DNA of 64,000 nt from positions 64,001 to 128,000 of IMG/VR virus record IMGVR_UViG_3300035210_000189; one strand, given 5' to 3'. Below, piece after piece: positions 24,920-25,450 of this stretch; position 1 is the first letter of the stretch; each line of letters opens with the position of its first letter. This stretch comes from a virus. Under the pieces are notes generated by a model. That model was given only the letters and a program-made list of their open reading frames with translations. It did not search any database and had not been told where the DNA came from. Made by a program: the position numbers and the translations under genes.

Positions 24920-24948
24920 TTGATTGTTGTGATGACTTGTGGTATAAT
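24920..24948 (+). promoter_or_regulatory. sigma70-like promoter of ncRNA copy A
   Basis: TTGATT-17 nt-TATAAT with extended TG. Confidence 0.75.
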
Positions 24949-24954
24949 CATCCC

Positions 24955-25201
24955 ATCAAACGAATTCGGAGCCTTCGCCATAGAGGGTTGGACAGCAGCG
25001 GTGTCGCGGGCAAGCTGTCACGAAAGGTGAGAATCAACTCCCTTTCATAGTAATGAAGTGCATCAGAGATGAGTTTTTCTCTTGATTAAAACGCTTGGGT
25101 GAAGCGGCCTTTGTTACGAACTTGATTGTCAATTAGCGAAGGAATTATAGTCCTAGTGGCTATGATTAAAACGGTTAGGTGGACTGGCCTTCGTTAAGAC
25201 C
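24955..25201 (+). ncRNA. Structured ncRNA copy A (two GATTAAAAC three-way-junction units)
   Basis: No ORF; homologous to 25248-25450 with compensatory stem changes. Confidence 0.75.
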
Positions 25202-25212
25202 AAATTAAAAGG

Positions 25213-25241
25213 TTGTTATTTACAGGTGGTTGATGTATAAT
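25213..25241 (+). promoter_or_regulatory. sigma70-like promoter of ncRNA copy B
   Basis: TTGTTA-17 nt-TATAAT. Confidence 0.65.
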
Positions 25242-25247
25242 AGCGGT

Positions 25248-25450
25248 CAGTTAAACGAATACGGAGAACCACTTAAATGGTTCTGAATGGTAGCGGTGGT
25301 CGGGCGAGCCATTGTAAGAAGGAGAGGTGATTTCTTAGTCCCTCTCTTAGCAACAAGGGCATTGTGGGTGCTGTTTTCCTCGATTAAAACGGTTGGGCGA
25401 ACCGGCTCTTGTTGCAAACCCTATTCCAAAGAGTTGTCGATGACAGCTTT
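25248..25450 (+). ncRNA. Structured ncRNA copy B (one GATTAAAAC unit), with terminator
   Basis: Same module order as copy A; ends in agttgtc-gat-gacagct plus T-run. Confidence 0.75.

What the first reader, a model, noticed from the sequence alone, without database searches (positions are those of the whole stretch)
24920..25450. Two diverged paralogous ncRNA genes in tandem, each with its own promoter
Seen: both start AAACGAAT(T/A)CGGAG, then a hairpin, then a stem (gacagc/gctgtc versus aatggt/gccatt) closing a conserved AGCGGTG...GGGC(A/G)A loop, then a purine/pyrimidine hairpin, then the GATTAAAAC junction (two units in A, one in B). Stem sequences differ while loops are conserved. The GGAG is not followed by a start codon. 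Inference: a modular ncRNA family maintained by duplication, with variable junction copy number.
Basis: partly seen in the sequence, partly recalled or inferred. Interest (0 to 1): 0.72.

Follow-up and report, generated by a model that had tools for sequence, protein, structure and literature searches.

The report
New modular folded RNAs beside tRNAs
Two neighbouring genes encode folded, non-coding RNAs of a family that is in no RNA catalogue, kept among the tRNA-like genes of a few giant phage-like DNA elements. Their shape is strongly supported by evolution, but their job is still only inferred.

Summary
Window 24955-25212 (RNA A) and 25248-25427 (RNA B) are 55% identical paralogues. Each lies behind a near-consensus sigma-70-type promoter.

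- **Build:** a head of two hairpins (H1, and H2 with a fixed AGCGGUG..GGGCRA top), a bulged hairpin H3, and a roughly 66-nt three-way-junction (3WJ) module with the invariant core GAU-UAAAA-CG. A has two modules and B has one.
- **Relatives:** covariance models find 16 full units and extra solitary modules in nine other metagenomic contigs.
- **Structure support:** 95% of cells pair, and 32 of 40 pairs show compensatory changes, against 8-14 in slid controls.
- **Not known, not coding:** there is no Rfam match down to E=10. The ORF across B has stop codons in orthologues.
- **Modularity:** the head never occurs without a module. The module also occurs alone, once behind a putative small ORF and just before a terminator.
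- **Context:** two units abut canonical tRNAs.

The best reading is a new family of stable, probably trans-acting RNAs matured with tRNAs, whose portable 3WJ is a binding handle. That function is inferred, not shown. This scan's notes already describe the same family on related DNA. The replicon is classed as viral by IMG/VR, but I found no capsid or terminase match.

The parts
24920..24948 (+). Promoter-like site of RNA A (TTGATT, 17 nt, TG-extended TATAAT)
   Evidence: 10 of 12 positions match. The same hexamers lie in front of the A-type orthologues in L004, L006 and L385, with changed spacers.
24955..25212 (+). RNA A: leader, H1, H2, H3, module M1, linker, module M2, 3' tail
   Evidence: Model R1 scores 168.5 bits, E = 6e-42, over 24955-25130. 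The fold has z = -3.2. The 5' end is inferred from the -10 box. The 3' end is inferred from the tail that pairs with the leader.
24970..24989 (+). H1 of A, a 7-bp hairpin that includes the AG of GGAG
   Evidence: helix 1: 100% of cells pair, and all 7 pairs show changes on both sides.
24991..25019 (+). H2 of A: a 6-bp stem, an A/AA internal loop, 2 G-C pairs and the conserved 10-nt loop GGUGUCGCGG
   Evidence: helix 2: 100% of cells pair, and 6 of 8 pairs are compensatory. The loop and internal loop are invariant or nearly so.
25022..25046 (+). H3 of A, a purine/pyrimidine hairpin with a one-base bulge (GG-U-GAG)
   Evidence: the same bulged hairpin, built from different stem sequences, is in most other units that have an H3. 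The two compact units of L005 lack it.
25050..25117 (+). Three-way-junction module M1 (P1, Pa, UAAAA, Pb)
   Evidence: Model R2 scores 61 bits, E = 1e-11.
25133..25197 (+). Three-way-junction module M2, the extra copy in A-type units
   Evidence: Model R2 scores 68.2 bits, E = 2e-13. The L385 orthologue shows compensatory changes in P1, Pa and Pb.
25200..25206 (+). Tentative 3' strand of closing helix P0 of A (CCAAAUU), pairing with GAAUUCGG at 24962-24969
   Evidence: 6 of 8 positions pair. The same scheme fits all ten distinct units, but the cross-pairing control scores nearly as high (6.3 against 6.5), so covariation does not prove it.
25213..25241 (+). Promoter-like site of RNA B (TTGTTA, 17 nt, TATAAT)
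   Evidence: 10 of 12 positions match. It is conserved in L004, L006 and L385.
25248..25427 (+). RNA B: leader, H1 (25265-25284), H2 (25286-25313), H3 (25320-25348), module M3, 3' tail (P0: 25257-25264 with 25419-25426)
   Evidence: Model R1 scores 166.8 bits, E = 2e-41. The fold has z = -4.4. P0 pairs at 7 of 8 positions.
25350..25415 (+). Three-way-junction module M3 of B
   Evidence: Model R2 scores 81.6 bits, E = 1e-16.
25428..25460 (+). Intrinsic-terminator-like hairpin and T run. It is the only terminator-like site with a T run between the first RNA-gene promoter (24510) and the ORF at 25480
   Evidence: 11-pair stem at 25428-25452 followed by TTCTTTTT.

Best explanation
**What is shown.** The stretch holds two paralogous genes, A and B, for structured non-coding RNAs of an uncatalogued family.

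- **Unit build:** each RNA has a head and one or two copies of a portable three-way-junction (3WJ) module of about 66 nt. The head is hairpin H1 plus hairpin H2, which carries a fixed purine-rich top. An optional bulged hairpin H3 follows.
- **Module build:** helix P1, hairpin Pa, the strand UAAAA, and hairpin Pb with loop RGGYG. Pb's 3' strand runs straight into P1.
- **Distribution:** the family is confined to a small group of giant, phage-like elements, where it lies among tRNA and tRNA-like genes.

**What is inferred.**
- Each gene is transcribed from its own sigma-70-type promoter.
- The leader and the 3' tail probably pair (helix P0), so the RNA closes into a compact, cloverleaf-like multi-helix junction.
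- Ends are made by the terminator after B. Where a tRNA follows directly, RNase P cutting at the tRNA's 5' end makes the RNA's 3' end.
- The RNAs then act in trans as stable scaffolds or decoys. The 3WJ would be an autonomous handle for one protein, and the H2 top a second contact.
- The partner is most plausibly tied to tRNA or translation metabolism, or to host defence against it.

**My odds:** real structured RNA family 0.95; stand-alone stable trans-acting RNA 0.55-0.6; protein-binding handle 0.3.
For: **Structure**
- Full units: 95.4% of cells pair and 32 of 40 pairs have changes on both sides, against 8-14 in slid controls. None of 500 shuffles reaches the observed values.
- Module alone, 21 distinct copies: 18 of 23 pairs are compensatory, and the covariation score is 0.507 against 0.241 in shuffles.
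- A sister contig differs from the window by an A-U to C-G exchange in Pa.

**Family**
- Model R1 scores 90-185 bits on 16 full units.
- There are exactly 2 units and 3 modules per partial genome, and 3 units and 4 modules in the 437-kb record.

**Not coding, not catalogued**
- Stop codons interrupt the ORF in orthologues.
- No Rfam match appears down to E = 10.

**Own genes**
- Promoter hexamers are conserved before every unit.

**tRNA link**
- A canonical tRNA-Cys follows the second compact unit in L005 directly.
- A tRNA-Met follows the L386 unit directly.
- The window locus is flanked by tRNA-like genes.

**Portable module**
- M2 is an extra copy inside A.
- Solitary copies lie before terminators behind unrelated 5' parts, in L007 and L405.
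- The head never occurs alone.

**No antisense target**
- The conserved loops have no complementary site in the window, which favours a protein or host partner.
Against: - No expression data exist. Promoters, terminator and RNA ends are consensus matches only.
- P0 is compatible with the sequences but is not proven by covariation.
- The small ORF at 25480-25692 has no promoter-like site of its own behind B's terminator. B could therefore be its leader.
- No partner protein is identified. There is no Ro60 (TROVE) or RtcB gene in five records.
- The family is small, about ten contigs and mostly close relatives, so shuffle statistics overstate independence.
- The viral nature of the replicon is not confirmed. 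Terminase_6N, Terminase_6C and HK97-capsid Pfam models all find nothing, and one copy lies on a 1.86-Mb contig.
Confidence: 0.55

Rival explanations
1. Cis-acting leader. The unit, or its 3WJ module, modifies transcription or termination of what lies downstream. It could be a processive antiterminator of the HK022 put-RNA type, or a riboswitch-like aptamer placed in front of a terminator.
For: - B is followed 12 nt later by a terminator, and then by an ORF with a GGAG ribosome-binding site but no promoter-like site of its own. The same layout is in L004.
- The solitary modules in L007 and L405 also lie directly before terminators.
- Four promoters in 24510-25241 share one downstream terminator.
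- The pattern of invariant junction and loop bases with variable stems is what aptamers show.
- The sequence shows GCUCUU of P1 (3' strand) complementary to AAGAGU of the terminator's 5' half in B.
Against: - What follows the units is not constant. It can be a tRNA, another unit, another promoter, other structured RNA, or an ORF.
- In L007 and L405 the next gene has its own promoter-like site.
- There is no consistent overlap between P1 and the terminators in L007 and L405 (from the sequence).
- A probable leader-tail helix closes the unit, as in a free-standing RNA.
Confidence: 0.17
2. RNA-end element or tRNA-shaped decoy. The module would be a 3'-end processing or stabilising structure, or a mimic of the acceptor/T-arm half of tRNA. 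Its partners would be tRNA-processing enzymes or host anticodon nucleases, like the aberrant tRNA-like RNAs next to it.
For: - The module is always at the 3' side of its transcript. It lies before a terminator, a tRNA or the tail.
- Pb's 3' strand continues without a gap into P1's 3' strand, as the T arm does into the acceptor stem (structure tested).
- The island holds tRNA-like RNAs with odd interiors.
- The window encodes an Rnl1-type RNA ligase.
Against: - Neither the Rfam tRNA model nor ARAGORN matches the units.
- The Pb loop has 5 nt (RGGYG), not a T-loop.
- P1 length varies from 9 to 13 bp, so there is no 12-bp acceptor/T ruler.
- No NCCA follows P1.
Confidence: 0.13
3. A new small self-cleaving ribozyme, or another catalytic or ligand-binding RNA, that cuts the multi-promoter array into unit-length RNAs.
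For: - About 17 invariant positions sit in a roughly 66-nt three-way junction with freely varying stems.
- The units stand in tandem without terminators between them.
- From memory, small ribozymes are common in phage RNA islands. This is not tested here.
Against: - No known ribozyme model matches.
- No conserved candidate cleavage site or pseudoknot was found.
- Each unit already has its own promoter, and tRNAs supply processing sites.
Confidence: 0.05
4. Not an RNA at all. The repeats would be DNA-level elements (protein-binding sites, recombination sites or miniature mobile elements), or the region would be coding.
For: - The module has spread to several places within each record, and the window carries a TnpB gene at 36352-37488.
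- ORFs of 54-66 codons overlap the units.
Against: - G-U-tolerant compensatory changes with a strand-specific pattern occur in five helices.
- All copies lie on the strand of the flanking promoters.
- The ORFs are broken in orthologues.
- Model R2 finds no copy near the TnpB gene.
Confidence: 0.03

Closest known systems
Bacteriophage T4 small stable RNAs RNAC and RNAD (species 1 and 2)
   Same: - They are phage-encoded small RNAs of still unknown function (PMC9697503 calls them 'RNAs of yet unknown functions').
- From my own knowledge they are encoded in the T4 tRNA gene cluster and matured from tRNA precursor transcripts. That matches the setting here.
   Different: - No sequence similarity was found. 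blastn of the locus against 50,697 phage records gives no match.
- The fold here is modular and different (head plus three-way junction).
- Each unit here has its own promoter.
Bacterial Y RNAs (YrlA type; PMC4201824)
   Same: They are modular non-coding RNAs whose ends pair in a stem. They have a separate multi-helix domain that mimics tRNA, and they tether proteins.
   Different: - No Ro60 (TROVE) gene is in any of five records.
- The units have no canonical T arm.
- No Rfam match was found.
phi29-type packaging RNA (pRNA)
   Same: It is a phage RNA of similar size, made from its own strong promoter, and built around a three-way junction that presents loops.
   Different: - No match to any Rfam model.
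- I saw no complementary loop pair that would allow ring formation (by eye only, not tested formally).
- The copies are tandem and lie next to tRNAs, which pRNA is not.
GOLLD and ROOL RNAs (large ornate RNAs of phages and prophages, often beside tRNAs)
   Same: They are orphan structured RNAs in a phage setting close to tRNA genes, and their function is unknown.
   Different: - They are several times larger.
- They are in Rfam and do not match here.
- They are not built from a repeated portable module.
HK022 put RNAs (cis-acting antiterminator RNAs; from memory)
   Same: They are roughly 70-nt, promoter-proximal, two-hairpin phage RNAs that lie in front of terminators.
   Different: - put RNA has no closing helix and no UAAAA strand.
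- The units here often precede tRNAs or other units rather than terminators.
- This comparison was not tested.

Membership tests
Any Rfam 15 family (tRNA, tmRNA, riboswitches, small ribozymes, pRNA, Y RNA, GOLLD, ROOL and others) | Score to the family's covariance model | tested here: not met
   No match overlaps 24955-25430 even at E up to 10. At gathering score there is none in the window or in nine homologous loci, apart from flanking tRNAs.
tRNA / tRNA-like RNA | Cloverleaf with T-loop, 7-nt anticodon loop and NCCA end | tested here: not met
   ARAGORN and the Rfam tRNA model call nothing inside the units. The Pb loop has 5 nt, and no CCA follows P1.
tRNA / tRNA-like RNA | Distal hairpin whose 3' strand runs unbroken into the closing helix (acceptor/T-arm stacking) | tested here: inconclusive
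   This topology is present in all 21 distinct modules. However, helix lengths vary (P1 is 9-13 bp), so it is a resemblance only.
Bacterial Y RNA | Ro60 (TROVE) partner encoded in the same genome | tested here: not met
   PF05731 is absent from all five records, including the 98%-complete one. The control genomes ring.
Stable RNAs of phage tRNA clusters (T4 RNAC/RNAD kind) | Encoded among tRNA genes and co-transcribed with them | tested here: met
   The units lie 0-8 nt upstream of tRNA-Cys in L005 and of tRNA-Met in L386 (the scans place the boundary slightly differently), with no promoter between. In the 437-kb record the units lie in or next to its tRNA-rich 375-389 kb stretch.
Stable RNAs of phage tRNA clusters (T4 RNAC/RNAD kind) | Homology to T4 rnaC or rnaD | tested here: not met
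   No blastn match of the 1.4-kb locus in the phage collection. The sensitivity of this test is low.
Stable RNAs of phage tRNA clusters (T4 RNAC/RNAD kind) | Accumulates as a discrete stable RNA during infection | not testable with these tools
   There is no transcriptome for these uncultured elements.
Riboswitch / cis-regulatory leader | Constant position upstream of a coherent set of genes | tested here: not met
   Downstream neighbours differ. They include a tRNA, a second unit, a promoter, other RNA and a small ORF.
Riboswitch / cis-regulatory leader | Expression platform that competes with the aptamer's closing helix | tested here: inconclusive
   In B, six bases of P1's 3' strand can pair with the terminator's 5' half (read from the sequence). 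I saw no such overlap in L007 or L405.
Tandem-repeat RNAs (type III antitoxins, CRISPR arrays) | Near-identical direct repeats at a fixed period | tested here: not met
   The copies are 70-78% identical and are spaced 80 and 218 nt apart.

The most novel reading that the evidence does not exclude
The GAU-UAAAA-CG three-way junction would be a new kind of portable functional RNA domain with an activity of its own. It could be a new aptamer, a small ribozyme or a polymerase-modifying element that these giant elements bolt onto different transcripts (head RNAs, a small-ORF mRNA, tRNA operons). The head-plus-module RNAs would then form a dedicated regulatory particle of an unusually large, still unclassified replicon.
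Probability: 0.15. Interest if true: 0.8.

Novelty: new variant of a known kind. Interest (0 to 1): 0.55.

Why it matters
Phage tRNA clusters have long been known to carry small stable RNAs whose function nobody knows; T4 RNAC and RNAD are still unexplained. This family has several features that make that question testable:

- It is compact.
- It has strong covariation support.
- It is built from separable modules.
- One module recurs on unrelated transcripts.

The module can be mutated, transplanted and used as bait. It also adds to the evidence that giant phage-like elements carry their own set of structured RNAs beside their tRNAs.

Tried and rejected
**Searches that gave nothing useful**
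- Rfam at gathering score and at E = 10: nothing.
- blastn of the locus and of one module against 50,697 phage genomes: nothing real.
- GATTAAAACGGTT also arises in coding sequence that reads LIKTVRGFGY, which I take to be an OmpR-type regulator. This gives false hits.
- A scan of 185,579 species genomes gave 13 pattern hits. The best among them scores 22.8 bits with the module model, against 60 or more for true copies. The family is therefore not a captured host RNA that I can see.

**Ideas tested with tools and dropped**
- Antisense targets of the conserved loops in the window: none.
- Ro60 and RtcB partners: absent.

**Ideas considered from the sequence and dropped**
- Shine-Dalgarno site at GGAG: no conserved start codon follows, the AG is paired in H1, and one member reads GGAA.
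- rrn/lambda boxA in the P1 3' strand: only two copies resemble it, and the strand covaries.
- Anti-SD sponge through the Pb loop: GGGCG variants break the pairing.
- T-box, K-turn and T-loop readings of H2 and Pb: the motifs do not fit.
- 5S rRNA resemblance of the GGUAGCGGUGG stretch: no Rfam 5S hit.

**Still open**
- Closing helix P0 is kept only as tentative, because cross-pairing between units scores almost as well as own pairing.

Full report
**Setting.** The window is bases 64001-128000 of a 152-kb record that IMG/VR classes as a provirus fragment with 55% estimated completeness.
- It has about 35% G+C, rising to 41% over 24-26 kb, and is packed with small ORFs that mostly lack Pfam matches.
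- Between 24500 and 25900 lies an ORF-poor stretch with four promoter-like sites on the + strand: 24510-24538, a TTGAAA-17-TACAAT site I read at about 24724-24752 that the scan did not list, 24920-24948 and 25213-25241. A single terminator-like hairpin at 25428-25452 ends the array.
- The first two promoters precede tRNA-like RNAs. The last two precede the RNAs of this finding.

- Both units begin AAACGAAT(T/A)CGGAG, at 24958 and 25253.
- Both continue with a hairpin (H1) and a stem that differs between the copies (GACAGC/GCTGTC against AATGGT/GCCATT) but closes the same AGCGGTG..GGGC(A/G)A top (H2).
- A purine/pyrimidine hairpin (H3) and the GATTAAAAC element follow. That element is present twice in A and once in B.
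- GATTAAAAC occurs six times in the window against 1.5 expected.
- A and B are only 55.5% identical, yet both fold better than their shuffles, with z = -3.2 and -4.4.

**Relatives.**
- An exact-pattern scan of IMG/VR with the junction motif found four further contigs of 162-437 kb.
- A metagenome scan added contigs of 3, 12, 112 and 177 kb and one of 1.86 Mb.
- Model R1, built from eight units, scores 90-185 bits on 16 full units.
- It finds exactly two units in each of four partial records and three in the 98%-complete 437-kb record. It also gives a weak 41-bit match there that is a solitary module, not a full unit.
- Looser patterns returned only chance matches.
- A scan of one genome per prokaryotic species gave no true copy, and cultured phages gave none.
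- The family is therefore real, rare and confined to one group of giant elements.
- Notes of this scan show that the same family was already reported from related DNA. I re-derived everything here independently.

**Structure of the full units.** On the model-guided alignment of the units, 95.4% of cells form standard pairs and 32 of 40 pairs carry changes on both sides.
- With the 3' partners slid by 1-3 columns, these values fall to 29-47% and 8-14 pairs. No shuffle reaches the observed values.
- H1 has seven pairs, all compensatory, and includes the AG of 'GGAG'.
- H2 is a six-pair stem, a fixed A/RA internal loop, two invariant G-C pairs and a 9-10-nt loop GGYG..GG.
- H3, where present, is usually a hairpin of varying sequence with a one-base bulge followed by GA. 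The diverged L386 unit has only a short plain hairpin there. The two compact units of the 437-kb record lack H3.

**The GATTAAAAC module.** This element is the core of a three-way junction of about 66 nt.
- P1 has 9-13 pairs.
- Hairpin Pa has closing pairs A-U, U-A, Y-G that give the 'GAU'.
- The single strand UAAAA follows.
- Hairpin Pb has the form CGNYU-RGGYG-ARNYG, and its 3' strand continues without a gap into P1.
- Over 21 distinct copies, 18 of 23 pairs are compensatory. The covariation score is 0.507 against 0.241 in shuffles and at most 0.215 in slid controls.
- The closest sister contig already shows an A-U to C-G exchange in Pa.

**Ends of the RNA.** The eight bases that end in the GG of GGAG can pair with a conserved tail, CC-N-WAUUY, that follows the last module. 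In A-type units this tail comes after the second module, just before B's promoter.
- The scheme fits 6-7 of 8 positions in all ten distinct units.
- One position switches from U-A to A-U between A- and B-type units.
- Three units have A·A there, and pairing leaders with tails of other units scores almost as well.
- I therefore treat this closing helix (P0) as likely but unproven. If it is real, the compact units are four-armed, cloverleaf-like RNAs.

**Not coding.**
No other frame is kept open.
- GGAG is not followed by a conserved start codon and is GGAA in one member.

**Genes of their own, tied to tRNAs.**
- Every unit in every contig is preceded by TTGnnn, 16-17 nt, and TAnAAT (often TG-extended) at a fixed distance, while the spacers differ.
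- In two distant members the unit's tail abuts a canonical tRNA within a few bases. These are tRNA-Cys in the 437-kb record and tRNA-Met in the 177-kb contig, and there is no promoter between.
- RNase P cutting of the tRNA would therefore define the RNA's 3' end. This step is an inference.
- In the 437-kb record the units lie in or just beyond its tRNA-rich 375-389 kb stretch.

**Modularity.**
- The head model (R3) never matches without a module behind it. The module does occur without a head.
- It is the second copy in A-type units.
- It follows a different 90-nt 5' part in front of a terminator in the 437-kb record.
- In a 12-kb contig it lies between the stop codon of a putative 45-codon ORF and an intrinsic terminator.
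- The module thus behaves as an autonomous, portable domain that always sits at the 3' side of its transcript.

**What it most likely does.** No known family matches, so function rests on anatomy and context. My preferred reading is a stable trans-acting RNA in which the three-way junction is a binding handle and the H2 top a second contact. It would be matured together with the neighbouring tRNAs. The features that point this way are:
- a closed compact fold;
- invariant purine-rich loops with no complementary partner in the RNA (by eye) or in the window;
- a portable module that can be doubled;
- co-transcription with tRNAs.

A partner was not found. No Ro60 or RtcB gene is in five records.

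**The main rival.** This is a cis-acting role. B is followed by a terminator and then by a small ORF that has no promoter-like site of its own, and the solitary modules also precede terminators. The varying downstream neighbours argue against a classical riboswitch. A polymerase-modifying or read-through function is not excluded. Decoy or stabiliser and ribozyme readings remain possible at lower odds.

**Caveats.**
- Nothing here shows transcription.
- The family is small and its members are related, so shuffle counts are not probabilities.
- The carrier's identity is open. Terminase_6N, Terminase_6C and HK97-capsid Pfam models and the bacterial 16S model all miss the five records, and one copy of the locus sits on a 1.86-Mb contig.
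- The best relatives of the window's RNA ligase are jumbo phages.

**Verdict.** This is a genuine, uncatalogued, modular structured RNA family.

Noticed in passing
window 24510-24712: A promoter-like site (24510-24538) precedes a 122-nt tRNA-like RNA at 24587-24708. It has an acceptor stem, a T arm and an ACCA end, but an expanded interior. The only Rfam signal is a weak match of both ends to the tmRNA model (17.7 bits). It is conserved, with a shorter interior, in L004 and L006.
   Followed up: partly
window 24724-24913: A second promoter-like site (TTGAAA..TACAAT, read by eye at about 24724-24752) drives a roughly 80-nt structured leader and then a tRNA-shaped RNA at 24840-24910. The Rfam tRNA model gives 34 bits and ARAGORN does not call it. 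Its anticodon loop has 6 or 8 nt.
   Followed up: partly
window 25465-25692: A small ORF of 70-75 codons, with GGAG before the ATG at 25480, lies directly behind B's terminator. It has no promoter-like site of its own and no Pfam match. The same ORF follows B in L004.
   Followed up: partly
window 25708-25900: More tRNA-like sequence lies downstream of the small ORF. Window 25767-25786 repeats the 3' end of the 24840-24913 tRNA-like RNA (20 nt, 85% identical), including GGCCA.
   Followed up: no
window 139-1293; 26468-27100(-); 33036-33914(-); 36352-37488; 43685-44683: Recognisable genes in the window are a T4 Rnl1-type RNA ligase (best relatives in jumbo phages), a SAM methyltransferase, prolipoprotein diacylglyceryl transferase (Lgt), a TnpB/IS605 OrfB and a CDF cation-efflux protein. 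This is an odd mix for a phage.
   Followed up: partly
records G000-G004; L391 and L408 (contig Ga0308158_10000001): Terminase_6N, Terminase_6C and HK97-capsid Pfam models, and the bacterial 16S model, find nothing in any of the five 'virus' records, including the 437-kb one rated 98% complete. Copies of the RNA locus also lie on a 1,859,102-base metagenome contig. The nature of the replicon is unresolved.
   Followed up: partly
L405 1644-1882: A solitary three-way-junction module (1786-1855) sits between the stop codon of a putative 45-codon ORF and an intrinsic terminator. This places the module in an mRNA 3' UTR.
   Followed up: partly
L005 7866-7941: ARAGORN calls a tRNA with a four-base anticodon (agaa) in the 437-kb record. 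It could be a frameshift-suppressor-type tRNA or a decoy.
   Followed up: no
L382, L402, L404: The pattern GATTAAAACGGTT also arises from coding sequence that reads LIKTVRGFGY. I take this to be the conserved C-terminal motif of OmpR-type response regulators (assigned from memory). It is a source of false hits for motif scans of this RNA.
   Followed up: yes
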